Shown: positions 21,956 to 62,939, numbered from the stretch's first letter. The stretch: 64,000 nt of DNA from Geosiphon pyriformis uo1 (GCA_016748015.1 JAAOMT010000046.1:496001-560000); one strand, 5' to 3'. Translations and numbers: made by a program. The notes: generated by a model from the letters alone, not told the origin.

Positions 21956-21988
<33 letters not shown>

Positions 21989-22514: not shown

Positions 22515-23484
22515 GTTTGATGTATGATGATGATGATAATGATGATAATGATACGATTTTTTCGTGATGATTTTATGTCAAGAAAAAAAATTTTTTTTTT
22601 TTTTCCAAAGAAAACAATTTAATTTCTAGTGTAACAATGAATGATTGGAAAAATATATTCGTGAGAAAAGATCGTTCAATGAACTGCAGAGTGAAAAGAT
22701 TTCTTTATTTCCAAAAATAATAAATTGTCAAATTGCAAAAAAAAATTTCATAAAAGAATTTAAGTTGTCGGGTTAAAGTAGAATTTTTTTTGTATTGTTA
22801 TCGTGGTTCGTCTTCGTGAAATAGAGGATAAAAGATAAAAAATTTTAAGAAGCTTCAAACAGTTGAAGTAAAAAAGATTGATAATCAAGTCAAAGAAGAA
22901 AAGAAAAATGACAATTGAGTATCGTAAATAACAAGAGACAAAGATATGGTTATTTTCTACGGGACAGGCTGCTTATATCTCAGTTTTGTGTCATCATCAT
23001 CATCATCATCATCGTCGTTGTCATTGTCGTGACGGTGAGGTGAACATGTCGCGTGAGTTAAGTTTTTTTTTTGTTGGAAGCTGTTTATTCAATTGGAAGT
23101 CAGCATATTTTTTTTTACAAGGATAAAAGAAGGGTTAAGATATATTACCCTATAAAGAGTTATAATAATAAAACTTTATACTAAATTATGTGAACATTGA
23201 CAATTTAATAAATTTTCCTTTCTAGATAATGTATTGGTACAAGATTTTTTTTTTTTTAGAATAAAAGTCCTCCCATCCCTCCCCCCATAATATTGATTAA
23301 CCGGGTTGTACCATACTTTAAAAGAAATTGTATTTGTTACAAGAATGATGCCATGATTGTTTTTCTGCAGGTTTGGAAAGATCAACAACGACTAAAAAAA
23401 ACAAACGAGAAAAACTTGACCAAATTTTTTAAAATAAGAAATTAATAGTTTTTTTTTTGACTTGTATATGAATTTTTTTCTTCC

Positions 23485-39900: not shown

Positions 39901-42291
39901 TAAGTTAAGTATTTGTAAAAATCCCATTTCAGTCATAAGGTTTAGAAATTATTGAAATCTATGCTCTTTTTCATAAAGCAAAAACACCACTGACAGCCAA
40001 ACATGTATTTAATAGCTTTAAAAGCCACCTCAAAACTTTATTACCATTATGTTTTCACATTTTATTAAAAATGCCAGACAATTTAATAGCTTTGCCATTA
40101 AGTAGACTATCAACAACCAAGAGCAAATTACTTATACTAATAAGATATATTACAACAAAAAAAACATCATCTTTTACATGATTTAATGGTGTTATCAGAG
40201 ATTTTTGGTCTCTTTTCTTGAATGTTGTTAATGTTGATTTGCTGTAAATTTACATTCTCAAAAAGTAGTTGGACTTTTAGTAACTGAATTTATCTTCAAA
40301 TTATCTTTTATAATTTGAACTACTGAGCTTATAAGTGGAATGGCCAATTCCATGTCAGTTGTTTTGTGTAGTTACATTGTAGTAAATATCAATTCTTTTC
40401 CAGGAATTGCTTGTCTAAAAGCTTACTAAAATGTGTAGTTACTTTGCTGTAAAAGTTAACTCTTCTACAGGAATTTTGTTTGTAGGCTACCCTAATAATT
40501 GTAATAAAAAAATAAAAGAAAAATAAAAGAAATGTAAAAGAAATGGGATTTTATCAAGAGAAACGTTTTTTATTCAGGCCTGGAGTCACTAACAGATTAC
40601 TGAAATTAATAGCTAATCAATTTTAAAACATTAGTTTGTGTTGAGAGAATTTCAAATGTAATAATCAAAAAATTTAATTTTCGAATATTTAATTTTTATT
40701 TGAATGTGTAAAAAGTGATTTGTTCCAATTAAAATATCTAAAGTAAGATACTATGAAAAGATGTATTTTTTTGAAGAGAGAAGCTCTTTTTTTATATAAC
40801 TTGTTGTAGTACTAGTCTTTGAACTTGCACTTTTCTCTTTGCTACAATTTGGGTAAACTAAAGATACATTTTAGCAAACTACAAGTTATTTCACTAAACT
40901 ATTGATTATTTCGGCCAATTTTTATTAATTTTGGCAAATTTTGACTATGTTAAATAGTTCAGAGTATTGTGTAATTTGATCATCTTAATTTTTATTGTAC
41001 AAATCGAATTATTGATTAAGTAATAATATTTGATAATTTGATTAATTAATAAGTAATAATTAAAATAATAATAATATATGCTAATTAATAATAAGAATTA
41101 TGAGGGTAATTTCATGCTAATTAATAGTTAAAATTCTACTGGTAACAATGGCACATATTGTCTAGTCCAGAGATTAGACAACACCAAAGACACTTTCCAC
41201 ACTCTTATTCAGCTTTCTATAATTCTATTAACACTATGCTTCACCTTATTTGGCTCCAAAACCAACTTTTTATTTACTACTAAATGATTCAAAACCACTT
41301 TGTAAAAAGACTTGTCTAAAATATTCTTTATTATGCTCTCTTTATTCAAACAAAAGCTTTCTATGTACTTGTTAATTGCTTTCTTAATAGACATCTTTTT
41401 AGCCAATTTTGACTCATAAAGCTTAAACTTTCTGTACTTCTTTTAAACCATTAACAAATGCTTAAGAATAATCATTGACTTTTTATTAAGTTAAATCATA
41501 TTCATAATCTTACAAGCCTTATCAGAGTCTAGAGTTGACTATTTTTCAATGAAATACTTAAAACCAAGCATATTACCTAAGCCCAATCTCTTAACAATCT
41601 TGGCAACTAACAATTTCAACCCAAAAAATTTTGAATATTGTTTGTTTTTTAAATACTGATATATACTAAACCAATATTTAGAAAATGTCTTATCAGCTGA
41701 TTCCATTATTACTTTTTTCAACAACTTCCATATTATATTTAAATTATTACAAGCTTCTGTTACCAAGAACTCATTCTCTACTGCTGACAACTTAGCTATA
41801 GAACACTCTTTAAATTTCACTCATTTAGTAACATTTGCATCCTTGATCTTAAACTTTTAATGGTCTTTGTTAGCCTGCTTGCACAAGCTATTTAAATGAA
41901 CATTTAGAAGTCCATCCAAGCTAATAGATACCATAACAGCTTTATGATTAGTGTTGAAAAATCTAGAAACAGATCCAATCTTATAACCAATAACAGCTAA
42001 AGACAAATTCTCACTAAAAAAAATGTAATTAATAGTTTTCTTAACCTTTTTTGAATTGTTTCACATAAAAGTTTTGGTTAAATAATGGCCAGAAAACAAA
42101 TTGACCAAACCCAAATCCAAACAAAACTTGAAATTTATACTCTTTCCAAACTCATTTTTATTAAAGTCATTACCTAATATCACAAAATTGCTGAAGTTGA
42201 CAGCCTTTACAATAAGAGAGTTTATCTCCAAAGTCTGTTCAAATTTAGCTTTAGACAAAGCACCAATATACAAGTTCAAAACTGTAACCGA
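36938..42291 (-). mobile_element. LINE copy C: 3' two-thirds (APE C-terminal part to poly-A tail); cut at 42291 by Gypsy A and containing a solo LTR
   Basis: Poly-T at 36938-36945 plus the conserved 3' UTR; RNase H MYIDG..LNSQAA..KDHSGVVGN; RT MFVDNTIW; APE ILGNDFNK. Confidence 0.9.
40190..41147 (-). mobile_element. Solo LTR of Gypsy family B (958 bp)
   Basis: TGTTAT...GTAACA termini; TSD ATGG (40186-40189 / 41148-41151); colinear with the LTRs at 51302-52271 and 60183-61152. Confidence 0.95.
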
Positions 42292-43112
42292 TGTTACTCA
42301 TAAAATATAGAAATCATATTAGTATATAAATTAGCCAATCAAAAGTAGACATATTAAAATAAAAAATTCCAGGATTTCTTTTAAAGAAATTACAGGATTT
42401 CAGAATTACAGGATTCTTATATAAAAAATTGCAAGATTCCAGAATTCCAGGATTCTTCTTGAAAAATTACAGGATTTCAAAAATTCCAGGATTCCTGGTG
42501 TAAAGAATTAAGGAATTGAGAAATTGAGGAATCTCAATTATGTATATATAGCAGTAGTATTAGAAACAGAAAAGACATCTGAATTCTACTTCTTAATTAG
42601 CATTCATATATTTACACTATCAATAAATATACTTATTAATTATATTAATTCAATTGTCCACTATTAACACTTTATGTTAATAGTAACTTATATTTGATCA
42701 CACTGGAACAATAGCTCTTAATTATGGCTATTGATGGAATACTAATTTAATTGCTTTGGCTTCATTTTCTGCATTTTCTTTTATTTTTTTTTGTTGTTTT
42801 TTGTTGTTTACTAATTGATTAAGAATTAAGCACTAAATTACTGACATCAGGAATTGCCTGATAAAAGATTCCAAGCAAAAGGGTAGACACTAGAAATTAA
42901 AAATTACTTATCAAAGGATTGTCAGCCATCAAACCAAAAAAAAATTAATAGAATTGTGATTTCAAGAGGCTACTAAAAACAATTATTGAATCTCTGTTTA
43001 TTATACAAAGAACTCAACCAAAACCTTTAGATAATACTCATCATATTAGCTATTAAGCACCAAGTTACGGATTTGTTATTTGATTTGAGACTCCAAAAAA
43101 TTATCTGTAACA
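42292..43112 (+). repeat. 5' LTR of Gypsy family A (821 bp)
   Basis: Homologous end-to-end to solo LTR 8389-9259; TG..CA termini; GGATTCC/GGAATT tandem block; TATATA box near 42543. Confidence 0.9.
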
Positions 43113-45028
43113 TTTAGTGCTTTCTGTAAAATGTAAATCAACAGAAAACCAGTACCAACAACAATCATCTAAAACAGTGACAGAATCCAAAAAAATAGGG
43201 ACAAACCACTTAGGATTTACAAAATCCTTATTCCAACATTATCACACTTATCTCAGATTAACAAATAGTAATTGACCAACAGAATCAGCTTTTAATTGCT
43301 ATATCAATGAAAAAATTACATACTATTTGGGAGGTTAAGAAAATCCAGAATCTACTTTTAATAATTTCTTCAATAAATTATTTCAAAGCACCATTCTTTT
43401 ACAAAACTATTTATTTGCACTCCTAATCATAGAAATAAACAGAAAAATTGAAAAATACACTAAGCAAAAATTTTCTATTACTTTTGCTGACAAAAGAAAA
43501 AGAAGATTACAAACACCAGCAAAAACTCCAAAGCAAATACAAGTATCTACTTAAAAAAAACAAAGAGTTGATTTATCTGCCAATCTATTATACTATTACA
43601 CACTTAAAAGCACCATCAATATAATATCAATAGACATGTTCACCACAAACATAACAACACCACTAAACAGAATTCCATTCCAAAGTAAATAGAAGAAAAC
43701 AGAGTTATTAAAAACATATAATGATTATTTTGAGAGATTTAAATCATAATTTCTAATACCATTAAGAGTTTAATCACTGCCACTACAACCAGATTTTGGA
43801 GCCATTAGTTCTTGGGAAATAACTGACTCCAAGAGAAAAAAAGACAGCGATCAAGAAATTAATAAGCAAAATCCAATTCTAGAAAACCTGAAAATTTAAA
43901 CCCTAATCATTTCAACTCAGCAAAATCAAAACAATTCAAATATTGTTTCTATTGTTCTTCAAAACTTACCTCCAGTAAATGTGATCAATTCACTACTCCA
44001 GCAGCAACTGCAACAACAATTTCAATTACAATTGCAACAACAACTATTATTAGCACTGATAGCATACACATTTATCACCAAAATTAAGAAATTTACCAGT
44101 AAAAAAAACAATGCCCAAGTATGAGTTAATAACATGGAAAAAGCCATCACAGTTAATGGATAATATGACATTAAAACATTATAGGCAATTCCATATTTTC
44201 TACAGAATACTGCTAACTCATAGTATCAAAGTTTGGCAAATAAACTCCAAGATTTCAATGCATTTAAAATTGAGTTCCTAAGATATTTTAGTAACAATAA
44301 TAACATTAACTGTTTGGTCAATACATTCATCACTATAAAACAAAAAAATGCCAAAGCAGTCACCACTTACTTAGAATGTTTCTATCAAAATCTGCACCAG
44401 ATCCAAACAATTAATGCTAACTATTTTATAGAGCCACAAATTTTAAACCAGTTTATTTGTGGCTTATGCAGTAGCATCCTCCAACATATACACCCATTAC
44501 ATCCAGTCAACCTTCAAGCAGCAGTTACTCACGCCAGAGATTTTGAATCAGCAGAACTTAAAGCCAATCACATCTAAGCCATAAATCTAGTAATGAATAG
44601 ATTATCTAACTTGGATTCCAAATTGAAACAATTCAGTAATTCAATCAATCAGAAATTAAAAAGGTATTTAGTTAACAATTAGGCAATTTATCAACCATTA
44701 CAATGATACAATAATTCAGAAAACTCAAATTGTTTCCAAAATCAGACACATTCATTATTAATAACCAATTAACTATGGCAACCAGAGATGCACATTTGCT
44801 ACGATTGTAATAAACAAAATTATGTTAGAGCCAGCTGCTAAGTTTATAGCAATAATTTATAATCAGAAAATCAATATTGAAACCACAATTGCAGATTTTA
44901 AACTCTGAGCTATTACCCAAATCAAGATCAATACCAACCTAATTACACCCAAATGATACAGCAACCAATATACATATCTCCAATTTATCAACCAGTAACA
45001 CTCATAATATATCAACCATCATAGCCAT

Positions 45029-46043
45029 TGTTACCAGTAGAATTTTAGCTATTAATTAGCATAAAATTACCCTTATAATTCCTATAATTAATCAGTATAT
45101 TAATATCATTTCAAATTATCATTTATTATTTAATCAATTATCACATATCACGATTCAATTAAAATAATCTAATTAGTATAACAGAAAGTAGGATGATCAA
45201 ATTACACAATATCCTGAACTTTGTAACATTCAAAAATTTGCCAAAATTTACAGAAATTCGCCGAAATTTATAAGAAATTCGCCGAAATTTACAGAAATTC
45301 GCCGAAATTATGAATAGTTCACCCAAATTAATCAATAGTTCAGCGAAATAACTTGTAGTTTATCAAAATGTATCTTTAGTTCACCGAAATTTGAGCAAAA
45401 AGAAAAAGTGCAAGTTCATAGACTAGTACTACAACAAGTTGTATAAAAGAAAAGCTTTTCTCTTCTGGAAAATGTATCTTACTTTAGATTTATTACTTAG
45501 AACCATTCCTACACACACAAAAAGAAATAAATATTAAATAATTCAAAAAAACCAAATTCTTTAATTATTGCACTTGAAAAATCTTCAAAACCCAACTAAC
45601 ATTTCGAAATTGATTAGCTACCAATTTCAGTAAATTGTTAGTGACTTCAGGCCTGAATAGAAAACATTTCTCTTGACAAAATTCTATTTCTTTTACATTT
45701 CTTTTATTTTTTTCTTTTATTTTCTTATTACAATTATTAAGGTAGTCTACAGATGAGATTCCTATAGAAGAGTTGACTTTCACAGCAAAGTAACCACACA
45801 TTTTTAGTGAGCTTCCAAACGAGCAATTCCTGGAAAAGAGTTGATGTTTACTACAACATAACTACATAAAGTAACTGGTAAGGAATTGGCCATTCCACTT
45901 ATAAGCCCAGCAGTTCAAATTATAGGAGATAATCTGAAGATAAATTCAGTTATTGGAGGTTTAACTACTTCCTAAAAATGTAAATTCACAGCAAATCAAC
46001 ATTACCAACATTTAAGAAAAAAGACCAAAAACCTCTGGTAATA
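45029..46043 (+). mobile_element. Solo LTR of Gypsy family B (1015 bp, expanded U3 tandem repeat)
   Basis: TGTTACCAGTAG...CTGGTAATA (terminal CA mutated to TA); TSD CCAT (45025-45028 / 46044-46047); TATAAAA near 45442, AATAAA near 45527. Confidence 0.93.
45234..45352 (+). repeat. Tandem ~20-bp repeat (AAATTCGCCGAAATTTACAG) in U3 of the family-B LTR
   Basis: Three near-perfect units plus degenerate flanking units; fewer units in the other three B LTRs. Confidence 0.85.
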
Positions 46044-48665: not shown

Positions 48666-51301
48666 CAGTCAGAGATTTTAAATTTTGTAGATTAATTCTG
48701 GAATAATCCACAAAAAATTTTTGTAATCTAATTGGTGTTCAGTATTATTAGCATAGAGAATTTAATAATATTTTATTAATCAAATACTTCAAATAAAAAT
48801 CGAAACTAACAGTAGAAACATACTTTTATAAACACAAAGTTTTAGAATCCATAAAGATTCACACAACTTTACATAGTAGTTTTTTATTAAATTAGATTTA
48901 AAATTATGTCTTGCTTTATAATAAATGCTAAAAACTTACTCTGTTTATTTGAATCTTTTACCAGTAAATATAACAAAAGTCAATTAGTAAAATGTAAGAC
49001 CAAAAAAAGTCAAAGATGGCAACATGCATCAGCTAGTATTGCAGCAAAAAGAATAATGAAAATAACTAAGTATTTTCCTAGATTAACTATATTATTTGAC
49101 TTTCTAAACAATTACTCTTTATGTAAAAGACATTATAATTAGATTGTTATTAAAAGTCTTTTATTAAACAAATTACTAAATCAAATGATTCAACTTTTTT
49201 AGATTTAGAAAAAACAAAAAAAAAGACCAAAACTTTCTAATAATAACAAGTTGTTAGAATTAGAAAAAACTTTTTCTGATTTTGGAGTCCAAGTATTCTT
49301 GCCAGATCTAATATATGAAGTTTATATAAAACAGATACAAGAGCTAAAAGATATTAATCAACAATTATTATCTGAGAATGTGACATTAAAAAAACAATTA
49401 GATGAAGTATTTAATAATCAACAAGGTCATATTAAATCTGTAACAGAAATTGCCAAAAGAGAACGAAGTAATTTATATAATAATATAATAAGTTTGAAAA
49501 AAAATCATGAACGTTTTAGTCTAGATAGTTTTTTAGAGTATTGTCTTTTAACATGGCTTGTAAAACAAAATCCAGTTATTGTAAGATTTATTGAAACTCT
49601 TACTTATAATGAAAATAAATATCAAAATAAAAAGGAAAAACTTTTTAAGTGTGCTGTAGTAATTAATGCTATATACAGATCAAGGCACTTAAAATATGTT
49701 TCCACTATTAATTTAGCCACTTCAACAATCAAATATTCAATAACAAGATTGAAAATAGTCATTGATATTGATAATCATATTATAAGTTTCAGTTGTTATA
49801 AAAAGTTTACTAACTGATTAGAAAGTTGGCTATAAAACAGTTAAAGCTTCTTAAAGAATTTTTATTTTTAGCCTTTAACAATAAACAAAAAGATCAAAAA
49901 AATTACTTAGATCATGGATATAATACAGTCATATTCAATATTGTTACGAGTTTTTTTGCTTTTAATTATGATCAAATTAATGATATTTAAAATATAGATT
50001 CTTGGTTGTATTCTGAACTTCTTAAAAAAGAATATGAGAAATTATTTTTTTTAATTTCAGATATGATAAATGAAATTTATAAAGAACTTACTAATTATCT
50101 TACTATTATTTTAGAAGAGCTTTGTGCAGAGAAAAGTCAAGAAACAAATATGATTAATGAATTAGTACAACATTAAAGCCAAATTAGTTCTTTAAAAAAA
50201 TGCTTAGTTTGTTAATTGTCTAATATTAATAATAAGAAGTGAGTTTGTCCTACATGCCATAACAAATTACCAACAATCACTAAGATAAATCAATTGAATA
50301 AATCAGTTAACATTGCCAAAAAACTCATTCCTTATTCTTACACATTTGAAAATACATAATTGTATCTGAAAATTGAGGTTTATATGCCGCAATTATATGT
50401 TTCTGATCCAATAGCCATAAACCCAAACTCAATTGCCAATATTTGAAAGGTTTTTGAGCATATTGAAGAACTATCCAGCATTAAAGATAGTAGCTGTAAA
50501 TGGGTTGTAGTAACATGTGATAGAGTATCTTATTATTATGCATAAATGATTAAAAAAAACTTTTCTTGGCTTATATTGGTTTTGGGTACTCTTTATAAAG
50601 AGATGAATATGCTAAAAGCATTTGTTGAGCTGAATTGAAATATTAATATAAAATACTTTGCACAATGTTAAGGATATTAGAGTGAAAGTCAACTGCAGTT
50701 TTTTTAAAAATGTCCTGATTATTATAAGTCATAAGATTTAATATGTAATATATATAGACATACAATGGCTTCTGAATTAATGTGGTTATATGTTGTTTTT
50801 AAGAAAAATTCATTTGTTGAAGGTTACTTAGAATAAGCCCAAAATGAAACAGATTTCATATTCAGGTTAAAGTATGAACAAGTCTTTTTTTATTTACAAA
50901 CAATTACTAACTTTTGTACTGAAGTTCATTTTAATAGGTTTTCATTAAAACTTGCAGCTAGACAAATGTTTGTACCAATTTGGTCTGCTTGGTGCTATCT
51001 TATTTACCAATTAATTAAAATTGCTGATAAAGAACAATAACTATGATTGAAGCCTAAAGTTTGCAAGCTGATTCAAGAAAGAATTGTAATTTCTTGATCT
51101 AAACTTTCAAATTAACATTAAGACTATGATACAATATTTGAAGAAATTAACAAAATACTCAAATCATTGATTTTTTCTACACCTTCACAATGACATTGAG
51201 AAATTGCAGTGCATAATTATATTAAATTTGAGAGATTGTGTACTAACTTCTTTAATGTTATTGGATATTTTAAAAGTAAAATATACAGGTCTTGTATACA
51301 T

Positions 51302-52271
51302 TGTTATCAGAAGTTTTTGGTCTCTTTTTTTGAATGTTGTTAATATTTGTCTGTTGCTACTTTCATGTTTTTTGAAAGCAATTGAACCTCTAATAACTGA
51401 ATTTATTTTTAAATTATCTCCTATAATTTAAACTGCTAAGCTTATAAATAAAATGGCCAATTCTGTGCCAGTTACTTTGTGTAGTTATGTTGTAGTAAAT
51501 GTTAACTCTTTCTCAGAAATTGCTTGTCTGGAAGCTTACTAAAAATATGTAGTTATTTTGCTGTGAAAGTCAACTCTTCTACAGGAATCTTATCTGTAGG
51601 CTACTCTAATAATTATGATAAAAAAAAAACAGAAAAATAAAAAAAATGTAAAAAAAATAGAATTTTGTTAAGAGAAACGTTTTCTATCTAGGCCTAAAGT
51701 TACTAACAGATTACTGAAATTGGTAATTAATCAATTTCAAAATGTTAGTTGTGTTGAAGGAATTTCAAGTACAATAATCAAAAGATTTGGTTTTTAAATA
51801 TTTAATTTTTATTTGAATGTGTAAAAAATAATTTGTTCTAATTAAGATATTTAAAGTAACATATTATGTTAAGATACTATGAGAAGATACATTTTCTTGA
51901 AAAAAAAGCTTTTCTTTTATACAACTTGTTATAGTACTAATCTTTGAACTTGCACTTTTCTTTTTGCTGCAATTTGGGTGAACTAAAGATACATTTCGGC
52001 AAATTACAAGTTATTTCACTGAACTATTGATTATTTCGGCCAATTTTCATTAATTTTGGCGAATTTTGACTATGTTAAATGGTTCAGAGTATTGTGTAAT
52101 TTGATCATCTTACTTTCTATAATACAAATTGGATTATTAATTGAGTAATAATATTTGATAATTTGATTAAATAATAAGTGATATTCGAAATAATAATAAT
52201 ATATGCTAATTAATAATAAGAATTATGGGAGTAATTTATGCTAATTAATAGCTAAAATTCTACTGGTAACA
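51302..52271 (-). repeat. 3' LTR of the complete Gypsy B
   Basis: Direct repeat of 60183-61152; preceded by a purine tract. Confidence 0.96.
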
Positions 52272-52274
52272 TAA

Positions 52275-52284
52275 TTTTTTCCTT
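52275..52284 (-). promoter_or_regulatory. Polypurine tract (AAGGAAAAAA)
   Basis: Purine run 3 nt upstream of the 3' LTR; probably eroded by G->A changes. Confidence 0.65.
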
Positions 52285-52289
52285 AAGAC

Positions 52290-52830
52290 TGAGTTCCATC
52301 AAAGTTCAAGCACTATCTGTGATATTAAAATAGTGGTCCAAAATAATTAAAGTGATTTGGTCTAAAAATTGTTAAAATTTCAGTTCTATAAGCTTTCCAA
52401 TGTATTGAATCTTTATTAGATAAAGTATTGGATTTTGTAAAATATTTTTACAAGTGTTGAATAACTCATAGAGTCTAAATGCTGCTCTAAGTTTGTAGTG
52501 AGTGTTTGTTAGTCTGGCTGCTGTCTTGAATTCATTGTGAATTTGTTTTTGTATAGCTTTTAGAGTAATGTTTATTGTTTCAAGTTCTAGTTTTTGTTTA
52601 TAAAGTGTTTTTCCAATATGAAAATATCTATATATAAGGGTATGTTTATTGTTCTGTTTGTTGAAGAATAGTAGAAGTTTTTGTTAAATTGTGGCATTTG
52701 GTGAAATGTCAATAGGGGCAGATAAAAAGTTTTCTTTTAGTGCTTGCTTCAAAAGTTTTGGTAATTGATTTCCAGAGTAACTTCTTGTTATTTTCTATAA
52801 GAGTGATAATTCTGGGAATTATTTTCTACT
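52290..52830 (-). pseudogene. Extra ORF (ORF3) between integrase and the 3' LTR of Gypsy B, unknown function
   Basis: Hand translation gives 103 stop-free codons at 52683-52375 (QKLLLFF..YRYFHIGKTLY..KLRAAFRLYELF..IQYIGKL). It extends both ways through CAA/CAG/CGA-revertible stops and is absent from the ORF track because it lacks a start codon. Confidence 0.6.
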
Positions 52831-53199
52831 AGTGCTGTGGTTTTTTTTTGAGTATAATTAATTTGATTTCCATTAATTATTATGAATAGATCAAGAAGTG
52901 TTTTCAAAGCTAACATTAATTTTTGGAATATTTGTTGAATATTTCGAAGAATAATCATGATAATTGACTAATTAATAAACAAAATTTTTAAAAAAAATAA
53001 AGAAAATTATTTTTGGATATGGGGTTTTTATTTGTTTTTAGGTTTGAATGTTTCTTGTAATTATTTACTATTTTTGTTTTATATTTTGTGTATTTTAAAG
53101 GAGTTATTATAAAAATGTTAAATTAAATGTTTAAGTTTAATTGTTGTTCTATTATAATTATTGGTTCTAAATTTCAGAGAATATCTTCAGGATTAATTA

Positions 53200-54506
53200 G
53201 AGGAGAATGTGTACCAATTTGTGGAATTAATGGTTCAGGATTGTTTCTGGAATGATAGTATTTTAATCAATCTCCATGTACAACTTTTGCTAGTACTTTG
53301 TCATCAAGTCTTAACTTGTATGATCTATTGCCTAGAATTTCATAAATATAAAATGGTCCATCCCATTTATGTTCAAATTTTCCACTCCATTGTTTTTTAA
53401 TCTTAGTTCTGTGTAAGAGAACTTTATTTCCCACTTTAAATTTGTTAGTAACTGGTGACAATTTGTTGTTATGTCTTTCTTTTTGTTGGGCTTAAGAGTG
53501 TTTAATATGAATGGCTGCTATGTGTTTTTTTTTTCAATATACTAAAAAGAGTGTAGGCTCTTTTTTGGAGTGTTTTTTGAAAGTTTTCTTCATTGGTTGG
53601 TTGTACTGAATATGTTTTTACTGTAAAATTAATTGGCAATGTTGCTGTCTTTTCATAAGTAAGATCAAATAGTATGTGTTTCATAGTATCTTGTTTTAGT
53701 GTTCTGTATGCTAATAACACTGATGGAATAAAAATATCCCATTCCTGCTCAAAATCTGTTGAGACTTTGGCTAAAGATTCACACAATGTTCTGTTGAAAC
53801 GTTTTACAAGTCTATTTGTTTGAGGATAATAAAGTGATGATAGAGGTCTTTTGATATTGAATCATTCACAAATTTCTTGTATCAAGTTGTTCACAAAATG
53901 TGTTCTTTGATCAGATAAGAGTTCAATTGGGCATCTATGTCTACAAATAATGTCTTCATAAATGAAATTTGCTACTGATTTTGCATCTGTTCTTTGAATG
54001 GCTCTAGTTTCAGGCCATTTGGTAAGATAATCTACTGCAACTGCAATATAACAATTTTTTTGGGTTGTGATAGGTAATGGTCTGACTAAATCAATTCCAA
54101 CTTTGTCAAAAGGTTGTTCAACTTTGATTGGATTTAAAGATTCTGTGGGGTGAGTTCCTTCTCTTTTTTGACAACTATTACAAGATTTTATATATTGTTG
54201 AATGTCTTTTTACATATAGGACCAAAAATAATGTTTAAGAGTTCTTTGAATTGTTCTATCTCTTCCCAAGTATGCTGAAGATAGATTTGTGTGTATGTTG
54301 TATAGGATTGTTTCTTTTTCATTTTACTGTACTAACTTGAGTAGTTGGTTTGGGTTTTTGTGATTTTTGTAATAAATTTTGTTGTAATGTATAAAATATT
54401 GTTTGAATTGGTGTTGTAATCGATGTTTTTCACTTGGAGACCAATTTTCTGGCATGATAAGAGTCTCCAAATAGTTTTTAAAGTTGTTGTAATTTCTGAG
54501 ATTCAT
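53200..54506 (-). pseudogene. Gypsy B integrase (HHCC, DDE core, GPF/Y tail; no chromodomain seen)
   Basis: HTN..SCNSCQK, VGIDLV.PL, VDYLTKWPE, LLSDQ.THFVN, LV(E>K)RFNRTL, VLLAYRT, KFEHKWDGPFYI. Confidence 0.92.
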
Positions 54507-54599
54507 TGTTGTTTTGTTGTTTTGTTGGTAGTAATAAGTTGTAGTGAATTTGTTGATAGTGTTAATCTTGTCTTATTTTTGAAAGGCTATCAACATTAG

Positions 54600-55900
54600 T
54601 GTGTAGTTTTCTTGGTTTGTGGTGTACAATATATTTGTAGTCTGCTAGAAAATTATTCTATTGAGACTGTTTGGCACTTTGTTCAGTTTTTTTTTTATTG
54701 AGCCATTTAAGACCAATATTGTCAGTTATGATGTCAAATTCTTTTCTATTCTTTAGGTATTGTTGAAAGTGTTTAAGAGCCCAAATGACTATAGCAGCTT
54801 CTAATTCAGTTGAGCCATATTTGAATTCTGTAGATTTGAGTGTTTTATTGGCATAAGCAATAACTTGCTCCTGGCTATTTTCATTCAATTGTGATAGAAT
54901 GGCACCAAATGTTATGTGTGAAATATCAGTGGCTAGTTAAAACTGTTTGTTAAAGTCTGGGTAAACAAAAACTGAGGCTGTTGTCAATTTTGTTTTGAAA
55001 ATTTTAAAGACTTTCTGCTGTTCTTTAATCCATTGATATAGCATGTTTTTGTTGATAAAATAATTGAGTGGTTTGGCAATTTCTGATGAATTTTTAATAA
55101 TAAGAGGTTAATTCTACAAATCTTTGTAGTTCTGTGGTATTTTTGGAAGTTTAAAAGTTTTTGACAGCACTAATTGTTTTCAGATTTGGTTTGGCTCCAT
55201 CTTTGCTGACAATATGTCCAAAAAAGATTAAACTTGTTTTTCCAAAGTGACACTTCTTAATGTTCAATTTCAATCTTGCTTTCCATAATTGTTGAAAAAC
55301 TTCTTACAAGTGGATAAGATGAGCTTTAAAACTTGGTGAGTACACATTAGTATTATCAAGATAGACAACTACTAACTGTCATAAAAATACTTCATATACA
55401 ACATCCATAAATTGCTAAAATGTTGTTGGTGCATTATAGAGTCTAAAAAGCATAACATTGAACTCATAGTTTCTTTCTTGGGTGGTAAATGCTGTTTTGG
55501 ATCAATTTTTTGGGTCTATTTTGACTTGTCAGTATCCACTTTCCAAGTCTAAAGTTGAGAAGAACTTGGCTTTTCCTAGAGCATCTAAGATGTCATTAAT
55601 TTTTGGAAGAGAATAGGCATCTCCAATTGTCATGCTATTGAGTTGACAATAATCTACACAGAATCTGATTTTTCTATTTTTCTTTTTAACAAGAACTACT
55701 GATGAGACCCAAAGACTTCTTGATGATTGAATCAATCTGTTATTGAGCATTTTTTGGACCTCTTCTTTTATAAATTGGTGGCTAGCAGATGGAACTTGAT
55801 AAGCTTATTGTTGTTTTGGTAAAGCATCTTCTGTATGGATTTAATGTTGAATAATATCAGTTTTTTTCAGATCATTGTTGTTTTTTGCAAATATATCTGC
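54600..55900 (-). pseudogene. Gypsy B reverse transcriptase and RNase H
   Basis: WVSSVVLVKKKN.KIRFCVDY.QLN, FSTLDLESGY, VVYLD(D>N)TNVYS at 55363-55352, FFGHIVSKDG, VIAYANKTL..YGSTELEAAIVIWALKHF..IITD. Confidence 0.93.
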
Positions 55901-56369
55901 AAATTCAGCTATTAGCTGTTTCAATTGTCTTTGTTGTTGGGGTTCTAAGGGACTCATGTTGATTCAAGAGAGTTTTTTTTCCAAAAAGTGGTAGTTTTCA
56001 GTAATAAGGATAATATTTGGATTTGGAAGTAGAGTATGTCTTACAATTTCGATAAAATTAAAGACAATTTGGAAGTTTTTATCTTAAAAGATATTATTGT
56101 GTATGATTCCAATCTCTGATTTGTTCAATAAAACAATAAGAGTAATTATTGGGATTGTAAAATGTAACTTGAAATTTTTTTATTCCTTTGGAAATATAAA
56201 CATTTAGGATTGAGATTTTATGCTTTAAACAAATTTGTTTATTGGATTCAAAGATTTGTTGAATAGTGATGGGTTTTGAGCAAGTGTAAATTTCGTGATG
56301 TTTTCCAAAAGATGAAATCTGGTGAGATTTATTCTGTGCATTGAGAACTATATTTACTGGAGCTGTAAA

Positions 56370-56800
56370 TCATTCAGTTGAACCAAAATCTTGCATTTTT
56401 CTTTTACTTTTTCCTAATTGTTCTCTGTTGTTAACTGATTGTAAACTCAAAATGTTAATTAAGAGTAAGTAAATTGCTTGGGCAATTTTTTTAGCATGTT
56501 CAATTCTGAATAGTTTGTTTGTTTTATTTTGTAACATAATAGTAATATCTCCAGTATATCCTGCATCTATGACTCCTTCTCTAACATTGATTTCTTTGCT
56601 TGCCAATGATGATTGGAAAGCAATTTGGACCATTGCTCCTAGTGGTATTTTAAGAGCAATTCTGAGATTGATTTTGGTTAAAGATTTTGGTTGGAGAACC
56701 AAAGTGTCTTTGCCAGAATATTTTAGATTATATCCTGTATCAATTTCGTGGGCTTTTTTTGGTTTTATTCTTTTTCCATTGTTGTTAAAGTATTTGAATT
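56370..56800 (-). pseudogene. dUTPase domain within Gypsy B pol
   Basis: All five trimeric dUTPase motifs are recognisable: AHEIDTGYNL (I), QIAFQSSLASK (II), GVIDAGYTGDITIML (III), KIAQAIYL (IV), KRKMQDFGST (V). In frame with gag and PR. Confidence 0.92.
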
Positions 56801-57799
56801 GTATAGCAGATTGGTTTTTAGTAAGATAAATTGAAGTTGTTGTAATTTCTTCTTCTGGCTTAGGTTCTCCAAACTTAATTTTTTTTTGGTCATTTTTGTT
56901 GGGTAAGAGAATACTAAGCACATAGCATTTTGAACACTATTTATTATTACAAGGCATGATGTATTCTTCACACAATTGAATATTTATCTGCTCTAATCAT
57001 TGAATTTGAGCTTCTTGAGTCAGATAAGTGTGACTTGCAATTTGGTGATATGTTTTTACTTTATCTTTGTAGTTGAATCTAGCTAATTCTATTATATACT
57101 CAATGTATTCTGCTTCTTTTATTTGGTGGACATCTTTTTGTGTGGCTCCATTAATTAAAGTTATTGCTAGGTCAAAGATTATTTCAGCATCATAAGAGTA
57201 GTGGTAAAGTTTGTTGAGAGCACTGTTGTATGTTGTATTAAAAAGTGTTCCTCTTCTGACTTTTTCTGAGATTGATAGAGCATATTGACAGGTTTGATCA
57301 CATACTCCTCCTTTTATTGCAACATCAATCTAGTTGTATTCTTCTGGTGGCATATCTTCATATGTGAGACATGGAGTGTTGTCCTATTTTCCACTTCTTT
57401 TGGGATATTCAAATCGTTTTCTATGACATGCTTTACAAAAGTAGCAGATGCAAGTTTCATATTCTTCTTCTGGAGAAATACATGCTCCCATTGATGAAAG
57501 TTTTTTGTTACAATCTTTGCATTTAAGTGGGATGTAGGGTGGTTGTTTTCATGATTCTGGTGTAGAATATCTAACTACATTCTATTCTCTGGTCTTTTCA
57601 AAAATTTCTTGTTCTGTTTCCTTGGCCCAACTGGATGTTGATCCAAGAGCCATAAAAGTTTCAGTAATTGGTAGTTTTTTTTTATTTTTAAATTCAAATA
57701 CTGGAGCTTTTTTGGATTTTTTATTAAAAGTACCACAAGTAACAGATACTCTAGTGTATTGTCTTTGGTATAAAATCTTCATTTCTTGGGTTTTCCAAT

Positions 57800-58110
57800 T
57801 TAAATTTGCATTGGCCTTGAAAAGCCAATTATTTCTGACAAGAGCTTAATATTGTAGTGCATCCATGACTAAAACTTTAACTGGAATGGTAATTCCATCA
57901 ATTGTAAATGGAAAGTTGTCAATTTCTTCTACTGGTGTCTTTTTCATTCTATCTGCTGTAACAATAACAGTTTGGGCTGGTCTGTCAACCGTTTTTTGAA
58001 GCTGTTGCATCAATTGGTAGGTGATAATACTTCCAGCTGATCTACTGTCTAAAATTAACTGAATTGGTTTTCCTTCAACTTTAGCTTTAGTATACATTGT
58101 TGTAATTGCT
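57800..58110 (-). pseudogene. Gypsy B aspartic protease
   Basis: KPIQLILDS(G>R)SAGSIIT ... IPVKVLVMDA ... ALV(G>R)NNWL. Confidence 0.88.
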
Positions 58111-58449
58111 TTTTGTTCATTGACTGCTGTATTGCTAAGCAAGAATGGTAATTCATTGGCTTCAAATTCAAATGAAAATATATTTAAGAGGTTGGCATTT
58201 TGAGCAATTTGAGCTGATGAAATAGTATTGTTAGAAGAGTTTGATCTTAATGTTGCAACTTCACCTTCAGAAAGTGCAGTTTGTTGAAAATCCGATTCTT
58301 CAGGTATTGTAAGATAACTGGGTTGAATGTAATAGTAATTGAGTCTTTGCTGACCAGAATTTTGGAGAACTAATTGGTTGTTTAAATTGATTTTGTTGTT
58401 ATTGTTCTGAAATTGATTTTGAAGTGTGAATTGGTTATGTTGAATCACT

Positions 58450-60137
58450 CTTTAAGCTGGTACTTGATATTGTTGTGTAGGTGGTTGTTAATACTGTTGA
58501 ATTGGTAGAAATTGTTGGTATTGTTGTTGTAGAGTAGGTTGATAGTAATTGGTTTGTTATTGGGGTTTTAAGAAATAGTAGACTGGTAGTGGAGGCTAAT
58601 AATAAGATTGCTGTTTTGAAGAGTAGTATTAATTACTCCTGTTTTATTGGTTTTTTTGTAGCTTTCTGCAATCTCATTTCCAATGTTCTGAAATTCCATA
58701 ATAATGACAACTTTGGTTTTGACTGTTTGATAATGGTGAGTAGTTGGTTTGGTTTTGTTATTGTGGTGGCTAATATCTTTGTGGTTGTTGCTGTTGTTGC
58801 TGGTTAATGAAATAGTTCTCAATCTTCTTTGTAAGTTGGTCAATTTTTTTTTCAGCTGCTGAGCTGGTTTCTCCAATAGCAAGATTCACAAGTTTGGTAT
58901 GGTTTGTTTTTTCTATTGCCATTTCATAGTTTTTTGCATGTCTAATGGCTGTTGCTAAGTCTTCTGGGGCATGTAAGCGAACTTTTTTGATTAACTTGTC
59001 TTTCAATCCTGCTATAAACTGATCCAAAATCTGGGCATTGGAATAGTATTCATTGGTTTCTAATTATCAAATTCATCAAAGAAGTTTGTTAAATCTCCCA
59101 AGATAGGTTATAATAGTTTCAAATGTTTCTTGTTTGATATTTCAAAAGCAATTGTGGAAAGTGATAGAGATGTTGTTGTTAGTAAATTGTTATAAAAAAG
59201 CATTTTTAAATGCTTGCCAGTTTTCAAATGGTTCTTCTAAATTTTCAAACCATTCTTTTGCAGTTTCTTAAAAAAAGTATGAGATTGCTTTGAGCATTCT
59301 TGCTGTATTCTAACCATTTGCATCTCCTGCTTTTTGAACTTTGTCAAGCCATTCTTGAAAGCTAGTATTATTATTTTTACCAGTAAATTCTGAAATCTTT
59401 GCAATATAAGCAGTTGACATTTCTTTTTCGTTTTCTGTAATTTTTTCTGATTCTGATTCAGTTTTTTTACTTTCTAAGTTTTCTGAATGATTATTTTTGT
59501 TTTCCTGTAAGTAATCAAGAAAATTGGTACTGGTTGATATTGGTTCTTGCTGTTGAATAGGATTTCTAAGTGACTGAAAATCTTCTGGTCTGAAGAAACA
59601 GTTAAGTGGTGAATTTGGTGTTTGTAGTTAAGCAAGTAAAATTGGAAATGATGTAATAGAAAGTGGTAATTTAACACTGGTTCTTTGTTCAGATGTTTGT
59701 AAGTGTTTTGTAGTTGTCTTTAGTGTTTTTGAAGTATTTGGGGTGGTATTTGAGTGTTGTTTCAGTTTTTGTTTGCCTTTGTTGTTTGTTTCTGTCTCTG
59801 ATTCAAAGTCAATAGAGTATTTAGACTGTACTGGATATGTTTCTTCACAATACTTGATAATGTTAAAATTAAGTTCTTAGAAGTAGGTGGCAAGTGTTTT
59901 ACTGTTAAGGTTTTCAGTTCCCAATTGTAAATAGTGCACTAAATTATTGTAGAGGTTGCTTTTAATTTTTGAAATGTTGTAATTTCCAAGAAGATAATTG
60001 TTGATACAGTTTTCAATATACTGATAAAGTGTTTTTTTAACAATTTCAATTCCATTTAGAATGTTGAATCTTTGCTTGCAATAGATGTAAATTGACTGAT
60101 AATACTCTAAAGTTGTTGTGTCTGGTGTGGTCACCAC
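58450..60137 (-). pseudogene. Gypsy B gag
   Basis: AYIAKISEFTG, AFKNAF, DQFIAGLKDKLIKKV..PEDLATAIRHAKNYE, a decayed CCHC knuckle near 58670-58710 and a Q/N-rich tail; same frame as PR. Confidence 0.85.
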
Positions 60138-60169
60138 TTTGAAGTTGTTATTGCTGTGTTATTTCCATA

Positions 60170-60180
60170 GGAGAGCACCA
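60170..60180 (-). promoter_or_regulatory. Primer binding site TGGTGCTCTCC
   Basis: Lies 2 nt inside the 5' LTR and begins TGG (complement of tRNA CCA); family A has the related TAGTGCTTTCT. The cognate tRNA was not determined. Confidence 0.8.
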
Positions 60181-60182
60181 AA

Positions 60183-61152
60183 TGTTACTGGAGGTTTTTG
60201 GTCTTTTTTCTTAAATGTTGTTGATGTTAATTTGTTGTGAATTTACGTTTTTAGGAAGTAGTTGGACCTCCAATAACTGAATTTATCTTCAAATTATCTC
60301 CTATAATTTGAACTGCTGGGCTTATAAGTAGAATAGCCAATTCTGTGCCAGTTACTTTGTGTAGTTATATTGTAGTAAACGTCAATTTTTTTTCAAGAAT
60401 TACTTATCTGGAAGCTTACTAAAAATGTGTAATTACTTTGCTATAAAAGTCAACTTTTCTACAGGAATCTTATCTGTAGACTACTCTAATAATTATGATA
60501 AAAAAAGAATGGAAAAATAAAAAAAATGTAAAAAAAATAGAATTCTGTCAAGAGAAACGTTTTCTATCCAGGCCTGAAGTTACTAACAAATTACTGAAAT
60601 TAGTAGCTAATTAATTTCAAAATGTTAGTTGTGTTGAGGAAATTTCAAGTGCAATAATCAAAGAATTTGGTTTTCAAATATTTAATTTTTATTTGAATGT
60701 GTAAAAGGTAATTTGTTCTAATTAAGATAACTAAAGTAATATACTATGTTAAAATACTATGAGAAGATATATTTTCTTGAAGAGAGAAGCTTTTCTTTTA
60801 TACAACTTGTTGTAGTACTAGTCTTTGAACTTGCACTTTTCTCTTTGCTGTAATTTGGGTGAACTAAAGATACATTTTGGCAAACTACAAGTTATTTCAC
60901 TGAATTATTGATTATTTCGGCCAATTTTTATTAATTTTGGCGAATTTTGACTATGTTAAATGGTTCAGAGTATTGTGTAATTTGATCATCTTACTTTCTA
61001 TAATACAAATTGGATTATTGATTGAGTAATGATATTTGATAATTTGATTAAATAATAAGTGATATTCGAAATAATAATAATATATGCTAATTAATAATAA
61101 AATTATGAGGGTAATTTCATGCTAATTAATAGCTAAAATTCTACTGGTAACA
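60183..61152 (-). repeat. 5' LTR of the complete Gypsy B
   Basis: TGTTAC..GTAACA termini; direct repeat of 51302-52271; followed by the PBS. Confidence 0.96.
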
Positions 61153-61502
61153 ACATCTTAGCTTTATTGCTAAATCAAATTGATTTTAAGTTCAGATAAA
61201 AAAGACATAGTTTGTAAATCCAAATGTCTTTAATCATGTTTTTCGTAATATTGGCCATGAATAGATATTAAGCAAAAAAATGAAAAAATTCAATAAAATT
61301 GCACAGATGAAAATAATAGACTTTCTTAAAGCAAAACAAATTAAAAAAACATTGTTAGGTACTTGGAAACCAATTCTAATAATAAGTAAAGAAGCAGATC
61401 ATCAAAAAATGTAAATTTGTTAATAAAATTACAATTATTATCTATTATTAACTTTTTAATATCTCTTTTAAGTGATTATGTTTTCGAAGCTTATCAAGTT
61501 AA

Positions 61503-62330
61503 TTGTATGACAGCTTAATAAATATCCTTCAAGAAGTTAGAAATATATTGTATTATGTACAGTTTTATTTATATTGGGTTGAGTGCATTACTATTTATAA
61601 TTGGAACTGTAATCAGTTAATACACAATATTTGTATTTTTGAAGATGTCAACTATAAACCCAATGTTTATGATACAATTGTTTTTATAGTGAATGATAAT
61701 TTTGATATATATAGTCTGGAAGTTGTGTGGAATATAAATTGTAGTAATTGTGGTACTAATGCTCATATTGTTTAATGTAATGCTTGGCCCAAAGCTGCAA
61801 TGTAAAGATTATGGGTCAGACTCTCTTATTAATACATATCTTATGAGATCCTAAACTTTATCCAGTTCTATTATTTAAACACATGGTTGAAGTATCTACT
61901 AGCTACTAAAAAAGAGACTACTGGATAGGTTCTATAAAACTTTGGCAATTACTATTGCCAATTGTTTGATAATAATAATTTCCAATACATGGCTCTTTGT
62001 TATTCCTTTCTATTAACTCCTATTTGCAACATTTTCCACAAGCTAAAGAATTCGAATCACATACAAAAATCTTATCAGCCATCAAGATTGGACTTAATGC
62101 CAATGCTATCATTGTATTATATATACCCATTTTTAAAACATGATATGTTGAGTCTAGGTCTGAATTTTCATTTTGCATGATTATGTTTGGATTATAAAAA
62201 GCATTCAACATGGATTTATTTATTCCAAAAAAGTTGATTTTTAATATATCTTTAAAATTATCAGTTAAACTTTCACTCACTAATATTAAATATTGGTCAA
62301 ATAATGAATATAATTGCTAGTATAGAGTTT
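61503..62330 (+). pseudogene. Second ORF of the DNA transposon, unknown function, disrupted
   Basis: ORF-track entries 61503-61775 and 61962-62180 share one frame; the intervening stops are TAA/TAG/TGA, each revertible to CAA/CAG/CGA; contains CSNC. Confidence 0.5.
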
Positions 62331-62939
62331 TTTTTTAATTACAGATATCAAAGTTGGTGTGAAAACATATTTATTGGGTATATATCAAAATTTTTATATT
62401 CTGAGTTTTATTACTGGTCATATTTCTCTTCCTAAGAAAAAGTAAATTCAAACTTCATTTCTAGTTGATTTGCTTGAACAATGTTTCATTAATAAACTTG
62501 TTCCTGGAGAATCCTATTGGATTATTATTCTTATTTATAGGTCTGTTAATTTTTTCTTTCAATATGAAAAAAAAGTAATTTTGTTAGCCAAAGTTTGATC
62601 CAAAGTAATTTCATTAATATTTACAGCAACAGTCTCCAAAATACTACTAATCTCTAAAACACTACCAGTCTTTAAAGCATTAAGAGCAGTAGTAATGTAC
62701 TATATGTTAACTATTATTAAAACTTTCATAATACTTACAAACAACAAGCCAGATATAATAGTTCTATTATTGTCTTATGATGGCAGTGATAACTTATAAA
62801 AAAGAAAAGTAATTGAATATTGTAATATTTCAGAAATTTTGTTTAGTGTTCTATAATTGTTTCTAGAAACTTCTTTAATTTTTTTTACTACCATAAAAAA
62901 AATGATTTCCATTGACAAATCAGAAAATTTTCCTAACTG

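What the first reader, a model, noticed from the sequence alone, without database searches (positions are those of the whole stretch)
51302..61152. Candidate host-TE conflict system: a Gypsy with three accessory modules and a mutation-protected LTR repeat, in a genome that hypermutates its TEs
Seen: one element carries a Cys-rich insert, a dUTPase and an extra 3' ORF. Its U3 repeat keeps CpGs and barely diverges while the rest is riddled with C->T/G->A changes, and family B is the top layer in all three of its nestings. Established: TE-encoded sequence-specific anti-silencing proteins that bind short repeats in their own element exist (VANC of Arabidopsis VANDAL elements), and dUTPases limit uracil in retroviral cDNA. 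Inference: ORF3 or the Cys-rich domain may bind the TTCGCCGAA-type U3 repeat and shield the promoter from methylation/deamination. Caveat: dUTPase prevents dUTP misincorporation, not deamination of genomic C, so it would not itself block the observed mutations.
Basis: partly seen in the sequence, partly recalled or inferred. Interest (0 to 1): 0.8.

Follow-up and report, generated by a model that had tools for sequence, protein, structure and literature searches.

The report
Fungal retrotransposon with mutation-spared promoter
A fungal jumping gene carries an extra gene of no known family, and in this copy the promoter part of both end repeats has escaped most of the C-to-T damage that riddles the rest, likely because a bound protein kept it poorly methylated; whether that protein is the element's own is untested.

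Summary
Real, but not as first read. The element is a decayed Ty3/gypsy of a Geosiphon-type fungus: gag-protease-Cys-rich-dUTPase-RT-RNaseH-integrase, then ORF3, an unnamed soluble helical protein ending inside the 3' LTR. The dUTPase position is known, and both it and the Cys-rich region recur in another Geosiphon gypsy family. ORF3 has several diverged subfamilies and an intact metagenomic relative in the same place; no family or fold matched. TE copies carry all-context, both-strand C-to-T hypermutation. In this copy the first ~300-370 bases of both LTRs, up to the TATA box, lost 3 of 86 C/G sites, against 22% or more in the coding regions and 15-28% further along the LTR. The spared zone is wider than the 20-bp repeat; one solo LTR shows no such zone and the other gives no clear sign. 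Per-copy CpG survival in the repeat (7 of 16) is not above coding CpGs (34%). Best reading: promoter occupancy, binder more likely host than ORF3. A VANC-like ORF3 shield is about 13%. The scan noted similar non-env ORF3s in other genomes; sameness untested.

The parts
60183..61152 (-). 5' LTR, 970 bp, TG..CA; TATAAAA at LTR position 351, AATAAA at 460
60852..60948 (-). U3 array in the 5' LTR: five degenerate TTCGCCGAA-type units at 20-21 bp spacing; 2 CpGs left
60852..61152 (-). Low-mutation U3 zone of the 5' LTR (positions 1-301): 1 of 43 C/G sites lost
60165..60180 (-). Primer-binding site starting TGG two bases after the 5' LTR; cognate tRNA not identified
   Evidence: sequence
58650..60158 (-). 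gag (weak Ty3_capsid match, E 3e-4, below cut-off), broken by stops; end approximate
57861..58088 (-). Aspartic protease, PF13650 E 4e-6
56925..57521 (-). Cys-rich region, in frame between protease and dUTPase: several CxxC-type clusters around a helical stretch; likely zinc-binding (inferred); no Pfam or PDB sequence match
56376..56762 (-). dUTPase, PF00692 E 3e-15; conserved motifs whole in a family copy (P0179), altered in this copy (motif labels recalled)
55079..55850 (-). Reverse transcriptase, broken by stops and frameshifts; limits approximate
54658..54936 (-). RNase H, PF17917 E 1e-23
53156..54518 (-). Integrase (H2C2, rve E 3e-9, C-terminal part; homologues carry PF24626)
52252..52958 (-). 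ORF3, about 235 codons, sense strand; its last codons overlap the PPT and the first 20 bases of the 3' LTR; broken here by a frameshift near 52790 and stops
52275..52284 (-). Polypurine tract, decayed
   Evidence: sequence
51302..52271 (-). 3' LTR, 970 bp
51971..52067 (-). U3 array in the 3' LTR: five units; 3 CpGs left
51971..52271 (-). Low-mutation U3 zone of the 3' LTR (positions 1-301): 2 of 43 C/G sites lost; best breakpoint at position 368
51298..51301 (+). Target-site duplication ACAT (right copy 61153-61156)
40190..41147 (-). Solo LTR of the same family, TSD ATGG; U3 not spared (10 of 54 lost); 1 CpG left in the array
45029..46043 (+). Solo LTR of a sister subfamily (76-79% alike), TSD CCAT; eight-unit array with three perfect TTCGCCGAA and 8 CpGs

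Best explanation
This is a decayed Ty3/gypsy retrotransposon of a Geosiphon-type fungus whose U3 promoter region, in both LTRs of this copy, has taken far fewer C-to-T changes than the rest, likely because a dimeric transcription factor bound to the phased 20-bp array kept it poorly methylated; that factor is more likely a host protein than ORF3, which is predicted to be a soluble accessory regulator of the element's own expression. Shown: the anatomy, the both-strand post-insertion hypermutation, the low-load zone ending near the TATA box, the array's spacing of about two helical turns and its dyad form TTCG-C-CGAA, and ORF3 as a conserved, fast-diverging gene without a membrane segment. Inferred: that mutation follows cytosine methylation, that the array is bound, that binding lowers methylation, and what ORF3 does. 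The Cys-rich region and dUTPase are polyprotein parts that would act in the particle or during reverse transcription and would not affect genomic C-to-T change.
For: At sites where both solo LTRs keep C/G, the 3' LTR lost 2 of 43 in positions 1-301 against 36 of 130 beyond (p=0.001), the 5' LTR 1 of 43 against 20 of 130 (p=0.03), with 0 of 43 losses shared, so copying one LTR onto the other does not explain it; best-breakpoint permutation p=0.002 at position 368; TATAAAA at 351 and equal GC on both sides of position 370. Internal load of this copy 72 of 332 and 14 of 38. Pooled contigs of one run: 5 of 27 C/G sites in the array show 8% or more loss against 13 of 25 in the adjoining U3, p=0.019; array CpGs 33/10, <8/<8, 8.5/<8, <8/14.5% lost against 68/28% at the one usable outside CpG. 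The ORF3 codons inside the LTR are less hit in other copies, 20 of 263 against 773 of 5798, p=0.006. CpG lost about twice as often as other C (0.46 against 0.22-0.28) and no per-copy strand bias (chi2 131.5, df 119, p=0.20) fit methylation-linked decay. In R. irregularis TEs are CG-methylated and expressed copies less so (10.1101/2021.03.30.436303, passages). L001 and another gypsy family in the window also have short U3 arrays of their own, as promoter enhancers commonly do.
Against: One element only. The solo LTR at 40190 is not spared (10 of 54 against 40 of 160) and the one at 45029 shows no drop in private losses (7 of 47 against 10 of 94; confounded by subfamily differences). The 3' zone starts abruptly at the LTR edge (3 of 8 and 5 of 12 hits in the last ORF3 bins; PPT decayed), 200 bases from the array, which looks more like a homology boundary than a protein footprint. 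Per-copy CpG survival in the array is not above background (7 of 16 against 483 of 1439, p=0.43), and private losses in the array over four LTRs, 7 of 75 against 85 of 513, are not significant (p=0.13). Pooled shares are depth-weighted towards majority alleles and understate loss: the CpG at 52057 reads 8.5% lost but is lost in all four window LTRs. The LTR-encoded tail rests on four codons, and a sister subfamily (8 proteins) shows no sparing. Surviving TE CpGs are enriched beside AAA/TTT tracts anywhere (31 of 82 against 16-23%), so context explains part. No methylation or binding data were seen.
Confidence: 0.42

Rival explanations
1. One reading: ORF3 (not the Cys-rich region) binds the U3 array of its own family and shields it from methylation and so from C-to-T decay, a VANC-like anti-silencing system in a fungal LTR element.
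For: ORF3 30% alike between L001 and the window against 56% RT, 58% integrase core, 53% integrase tail; subfamilies 23-37% alike, one pair 61%; small, no membrane segment; four confident helices; array unit number 5 or 8; L001 has ORF3 and a five-unit U3 array sharing the TT(C/T)GCC half. VANC targets are variable tandem repeats and VANC is less conserved than the transposase (PMC5735166, abstract and section 9).
Against: No DNA-binding family or fold: best Pfam hint DUF1016_N E 0.015-0.037 in 1 of 36 and 1 of 32 members, far below cut-off; best VIA Z 4.8. Unmutated relatives are acidic (pI 5.2-5.9). L001's array has a CpG in 1 of 5 units. VANC lowers methylation throughout the TE, whereas pol here is heavily hit. 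A trans-acting shield should reach solo LTRs.
Confidence: 0.13
2. The low-load U3 is a replacement, not protection: both U3 tracts were overwritten by less-mutated sequence through ectopic or cDNA-mediated gene conversion, or pulled towards the majority allele during assembly polishing.
For: Abrupt start at the 3' LTR edge; very many copies are on hand as donors (63110 contigs laid from one run); solo LTR 40190 lacks the zone.
Against: Needs two tracts of like extent; no shared derived change (0 of 43); eight scattered differences remain between the two U3s; pooled contigs and the ORF3 tail point weakly the same way in other copies.
Confidence: 0.25
3. No shielding at all: CpGs persist in the array because active master copies are selected to keep and re-expand the motif and because A/T-tract context slows CpG loss; the low-load zone in this copy is patchy mutation.
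For: 7 of 16 against 34%; coding CpG survival ranges 0.02-0.85 by site and tends higher in TTCG/CGAA context, p=0.065; tract enrichment; pooled data cannot separate inherited from post-insertion variants.
Against: Does not explain why private losses are scarce over the same 300 bases in both LTRs (permutation p=0.002).
Confidence: 0.15
4. On ORF3's job alone (compatible with any of the above): it acts on RNA, as a Rev- or CERV-like exporter of unspliced genomic RNA, and has nothing to do with the array.
For: Small soluble helical accessory protein with a short basic PYxRK-type stretch in three of the lineages; precedent in Cer1 CERV (PMC10309623, abstract).
Against: No sequence or fold match to any such protein was returned; no RNA evidence was available.
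Confidence: 0.3

Closest known systems
dUTPase-bearing fungal and rotifer gypsy elements (Postia PosPlaTy3-5, Phanerochaete elements, Tuber Tmt1; bdelloid Juno, Vesta, TelKA) - PMC2864245 and PMC5408684, passages read
   Same: dUTPase between protease and RT (stated for PosPlaTy3-5 and the rotifer families); rotifer families also carry varied family-specific ORF3s, and Juno an extra zinc knuckle by the dUTPase.
   Different: A 200-residue multi-Cys region precedes the dUTPase; ORF3 matches no env, GDSL or DEDDy family in Pfam; host is a glomeromycotinan fungus; RT clade was not placed on a tree.
VANC/VANDAL anti-silencing system of Arabidopsis - PMC5735166, abstract and one section read
   Same: TE-encoded accessory protein that diverges faster than the core enzyme; short motif in a tandem array of variable unit number in a non-coding part.
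   Different: LTR retrotransposon, not MULE; no DUF1985 or DUF287 match; binding and demethylation untested; only U3, not the whole element, is spared.
Sense additional ORFs between pol and the 3' LTR of plant LTR elements (aORF-3S) - PMC7264820, passages read
   Same: Position and orientation; present in many copies.
   Different: Those are mostly env-like with membrane segments; ORF3 has none and runs into the LTR.
CERV of C. elegans Cer1 - PMC10309623, abstract read
   Same: Non-env accessory protein of an LTR retrotransposon that regulates its own expression.
   Different: No similarity was returned by any search; CERV comes from a spliced mRNA and acts on RNA export.
Foamy-virus Tas and HTLV-1 Tax with their U3 response elements (recalled, no call)
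   Same: 3' accessory ORF and short repeats in U3 through which transcription is driven.
   Different: Vertebrate retroviruses; analogy of layout only, no homology shown.
Repeat-induced point mutation (RIP) - PMC13297926, passages read
   Same: Dense C:G to T:A change restricted to repeats.
   Different: No CpA preference (CA 0.24, CC 0.28, CT 0.22, CG 0.46) and no per-copy strand bias here; many copies keep open frames.

Membership tests
Ty3/gypsy LTR retrotransposon | Direct LTRs with TG..CA ends, TSD, PBS and PPT | tested here: met
Ty3/gypsy LTR retrotransposon | Order protease-RT-RNase H-integrase | tested here: met
Ty3/gypsy LTR retrotransposon | Placement of RT in a named clade | not tested
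   no reference RT set was on hand
dUTPase-bearing gypsy elements | Trimeric-type dUTPase (PF00692) in frame between protease and RT | tested here: met
   E 3e-15 in the window, 3e-22 to 7e-23 in family copies; dCTP-deaminase model scores lower
env-like ORF3 | Membrane-spanning segment | tested here: not met
   highest 19-residue hydropathy 0.44-1.33 in 6 of 6 proteins
VANC-type anti-silencing protein | DUF1985 or DUF287 domains | tested here: not met
   no such Pfam match in 36 and 32 members
VANC-type anti-silencing protein | Diverges faster than the core transposition enzyme | tested here: met
   30% against 53-58% between L001 and the window; RNase H stretch 44%
VANC-type anti-silencing protein | Target motif in non-coding tandem repeats with variable unit number | tested here: met
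   5 against 8 units; different array in L001; that they are targets is untested
VANC-type anti-silencing protein | Sequence-specific binding to the motif | not testable with these tools
   needs EMSA, DAP-seq or ChIP
VANC-type anti-silencing protein | Known DNA-binding fold | tested here: inconclusive
   model pLDDT 80-92 only at residues 81-160; best Z 4.8; no Foldseek match at E 0.001
VANC-type anti-silencing protein | Loss of methylation across the element, in trans | tested here: inconclusive
   mutation load as proxy only: U3 spared, pol and one solo LTR not
RIP | Dinucleotide preference (CpA-type; recalled) | tested here: not met
   four LTRs
RIP | Strand-coordinated changes within a copy | tested here: inconclusive
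   no over-dispersion between 120 copies (p=0.20); adjacent same-strand excess 2423 against 2281+-31, not corrected for residue composition, absent in ORF3
APOBEC-type editing of cDNA | One-strand G-to-A bias, shared by both LTRs | tested here: not met
   47 C/T and 35 A/G differences; losses mostly private to one LTR

The most novel reading that the evidence does not exclude
ORF3 is a new class of retrotransposon-encoded DNA-binding protein that co-evolves with a phased palindromic array in its own U3 and keeps the promoter out of reach of an undescribed, all-context C-to-T genome defence of Geosiphon: the first VANC-like counter-defence in a fungus and in an LTR element, readable as a mutational footprint in the DNA.
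Probability: 0.13. Interest if true: 0.85.

Novelty: new variant of a known kind. Interest (0 to 1): 0.5.

Why it matters
Accessory ORFs of LTR retrotransposons are mostly unexplained. Here an unnamed, fast-diverging family comes with a candidate target array and with an intact natural ORF3-LTR pair (L001), so a binding test is direct. The genome's heavy C-to-T decay works as a long-term record of which bases were shielded, so paired LTRs could map promoter protection without culturing a fungus that is hard to grow. The all-context, both-strand hypermutation itself is not RIP-like in spectrum, and my searches found no description of it; the species' genome papers were not in the library, so it may be in print.

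Tried and rejected
No whole genome is held, so only four LTRs could be compared base by base. ESM Atlas gave no answer for three sequences. First ORF3 model was poor (pLDDT 43) and its Foldseek search empty. Second model: no Foldseek match at E 0.001 in PDB or BFVD, best VIA Z 4.8; this shows neither a new fold nor absence of a known one. No PDB sequence match for ORF3 or the Cys-rich region at E 10; the Cys-rich region was not folded (both jobs went to ORF3) and was searched only among proteins of 451-2000 residues. ORF3 homodimer prediction: no verdict, alignment not used. No RNA holder listed. The DUF1016_N hint was rejected as below cut-off and seen in one member per scan. A likeness of ORF3's helical core to a widespread unnamed protein family of arbuscular fungi is recalled only; neither profile search returned such proteins. 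Copying of one LTR onto the other as sole cause of the low divergence was rejected (0 of 43 shared losses). Lack of targets was rejected (equal GC). cDNA editing was rejected. The flanking decayed gene gave no Pfam match. Sequence look-up of ORF3 in earlier findings gave nothing; a word search on the protected repeat gave nothing.
Full report
Anatomy. The stretch 51302-61152 is one LTR retrotransposon on the minus strand: two 970-bp LTRs 90.6% alike, TG..CA ends, a 4-bp TSD ACAT, a PBS and a decayed PPT. Translation and Pfam give gag, protease, a Cys-rich region, dUTPase (E 3e-15), RT, RNase H and integrase in gypsy order; the gag-to-dUTPase frame holds 28 stops in 1355 codons. ORF3 runs from 52958 to 52252, across the PPT into the 3' LTR, and is broken here. 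All 88 homologues found among 96 candidates are named Geosiphon pyriformis by their source, as are the 120 listed of 221 for the Cys-rich region, so the host is that fungus or a close relative. No whole genome is held. Two more LTRs of the family lie at 40190-41147 and 45029-46043, each with its own 4-bp TSD.

The accessory modules. A dUTPase between protease and RT is described for Postia PosPlaTy3-5 and for rotifer families (PMC2864245 and PMC5408684, passages). The Cys-rich region keeps about 17 Cys over 120 homologues, has no Pfam or PDB match, and with the dUTPase recurs at 31-33% identity in gene models of another gypsy family. Both are polyprotein parts, not special to this family. ORF3 is a real gene: many open 221-residue copies, further Geosiphon subfamilies and two metagenomic lineages at 23-37% identity, one pair 61%. 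Locus L001 shows RT-RNase H-integrase-ORF3-PPT-LTR with ORF3 intact; there ORF3 is 30% alike to the window's, against 56% RT, 44% RNase H stretch, 58% integrase core and 53% integrase tail. It has no membrane segment, a confident four-helix core at residues 81-160, and no family or fold match.

Hypermutation. TE bins have CpG o/e of 0 to 0.3 (0.59 in the bin with the eight-unit array), host-gene bins about 1. Of 87 LTR-LTR differences 82 are transitions, 47 C/T and 35 A/G; loss by context is CG 0.46, CC 0.28, CA 0.24, CT 0.22. Over 120 and 55 protein copies, changes explicable by GC>AT outnumber AT>GC-only ones 2152 to 130 and 688 to 91 (columns with under 20 rows or no 60% majority were dropped). 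Copies show no strand over-dispersion (p=0.20); an excess of adjacent same-strand changes in gag-pol was not corrected for composition and is absent in ORF3. This is post-insertion, double-strand decay, which a dUTPase would not prevent. Methylation as its cause is inferred: TEs are CG-methylated in R. irregularis and RIP signatures were not detected in G. margarita (10.1101/2021.03.30.436303, passages).

The array. Five degenerate units sit at LTR positions 209, 229, 249, 269 and 290, eight in the 45029 solo LTR: about two helical turns apart, with a dyad core TTCG-C-CGAA. The exact nonamer occurs only in that solo LTR. CpGs left: 3, 2, 1, 8. At the four array CpGs held by most copies the window's LTRs keep 7 of 16 (my count), against 483 of 1439 at 26 coding Arg CpGs whose survival spans 0.02-0.85 and is inflated at CGA codons; p=0.43. 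Surviving TE CpGs favour A/T tracts, 31 of 82 against 16-23%. Pooled contigs of one run lean the other way: 5 of 27 array sites against 13 of 25 adjoining sites reach 8% loss, p=0.019 (edges, one transversion site and minor gain sites left out), but these shares are weighted to majority alleles and cannot separate selection in master copies from shielding. L001 has a five-unit array TT(T/C)GCCCT-type with one CpG, and another gypsy family in the window has a CpG-free array of its own.

The spared zone. Divergence between the two LTRs is 4 of 203 before the array, 4 of 97 in it, 8.5% in the middle and 45 of 269 at the end. Polarised on the two solo LTRs, positions 1-301 lost 2 of 43 and 1 of 43 C/G sites, against 36 and 20 of 130 beyond; none is shared; the best breakpoint is 368, permutation p=0.002, near TATAAAA at 351, with equal GC on both sides. 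The internal load is 72 of 332 and 14 of 38 (a protein-level measure, so the comparison with DNA sites is rough). The solo LTR at 40190 lost 10 of 54 there against 40 of 160; the one at 45029 shows no drop. In 79 of 88 ORF3 copies kept at 74% identity or more, the four informative LTR-encoded codons are hit 20 of 263 times against 773 of 5798 upstream, p=0.006, but eight proteins of a sister subfamily show no such drop. So the sparing is real in this copy, covers U3 and not the array alone, and its generality is open. Its abrupt start at the LTR edge keeps conversion or polishing in play.

Mechanism. I take U3 as a promoter whose phased array was likely occupied by a dimeric factor, lowering methylation and so decay (0.42). 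A host factor is the more likely binder because U3 arrays occur in other families, ORF3 shows no DNA-binding signature, and its unmutated relatives are acidic. ORF3 as a VANC-like shield stays open at 0.13 on its fast divergence and the variable array (PMC5735166, abstract and section 9). An RNA-export role like CERV (PMC10309623, abstract) is as plausible for ORF3. Being the top layer in three nestings needs no more than recent activity and high copy number (63110 contigs laid; not a copy count).

Novelty. Known kind (dUTPase gypsy with a sense 3' ORF; PMC7264820, passages), new variant: an unnamed ORF3 family and a U3-limited mutation shadow. Searches returned no description of this element or of this mutation spectrum; PMC11952901 (passages) notes only the LTR expansion in Geosiphonaceae. 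The species' genome papers and their supplements were not seen and may bear on this. Two earlier notes of this scan describe non-env helical ORF3s of dUTPase gypsy elements in other genomes; they led me to two papers, and I could not test whether the family is the same (one search found no look-alike). Foamy-virus and HTLV analogies, dUTPase motif labels and the RIP CpA rule are recalled.

Noticed in passing
TE regions across the window; homologous proteins P0003-P0057, P0171-P0290: All-context, both-strand GC>AT hypermutation of TE copies (about 16-18% per sensitive codon at the median) with host genes untouched; spectrum unlike RIP or cDNA editing. Possibly the more general finding.
   Followed up: partly
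51298-51301, 40186-40189, 45025-45028: All three insertions have 4-bp TSDs reading (A/C)CAT on one strand, a possible target preference (n=3).
   Followed up: no
42283-43112 and about 8540-9260: LTRs of a second gypsy family with their own U3 array (AATTCCAGGATTCC-type), without CpG in the array; 5' LTR followed by a PBS-like stretch and a truncated gag.
   Followed up: partly
52252-52300; L001:3100-3148; P0116: ORF3's last codons double as PPT and LTR start; the LEEEIMLP-type end is kept in metagenomic relatives but replaced in other Geosiphon subfamilies.
   Followed up: partly
ORF3 N-terminus (alignment A5): A helix plus beta-hairpin module seems common to the full-length lineages; low model confidence (pLDDT about 50).
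   Followed up: no
55850-56369: About 170 further residues between dUTPase and RT with no Pfam match in the open piece; a possible fourth insert or linker.
   Followed up: no
L001:1-3713: The relative is also CpG-poor (o/e 0.19 in pol) but nearly intact, with one stop in integrase.
   Followed up: partly
L002:398-811: An ORF3 relative is preceded by a 137-codon frame of unknown kind, not by recognisable pol.
   Followed up: no
49200-51301 and 61157-62500: The element sits in a long decayed coding stretch that continues across the insertion; no Pfam match.
   Followed up: partly
21525-22577: Host bZIP gene (PF07716 E 3e-7) in a region with normal CpG, flanked by stretches of 8-13% GC.
   Followed up: no
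TE regions: Surviving CpGs outside the arrays are enriched beside AAA/TTT tracts (31 of 82), hinting at a flank preference of the methylation or decay step.
   Followed up: partly
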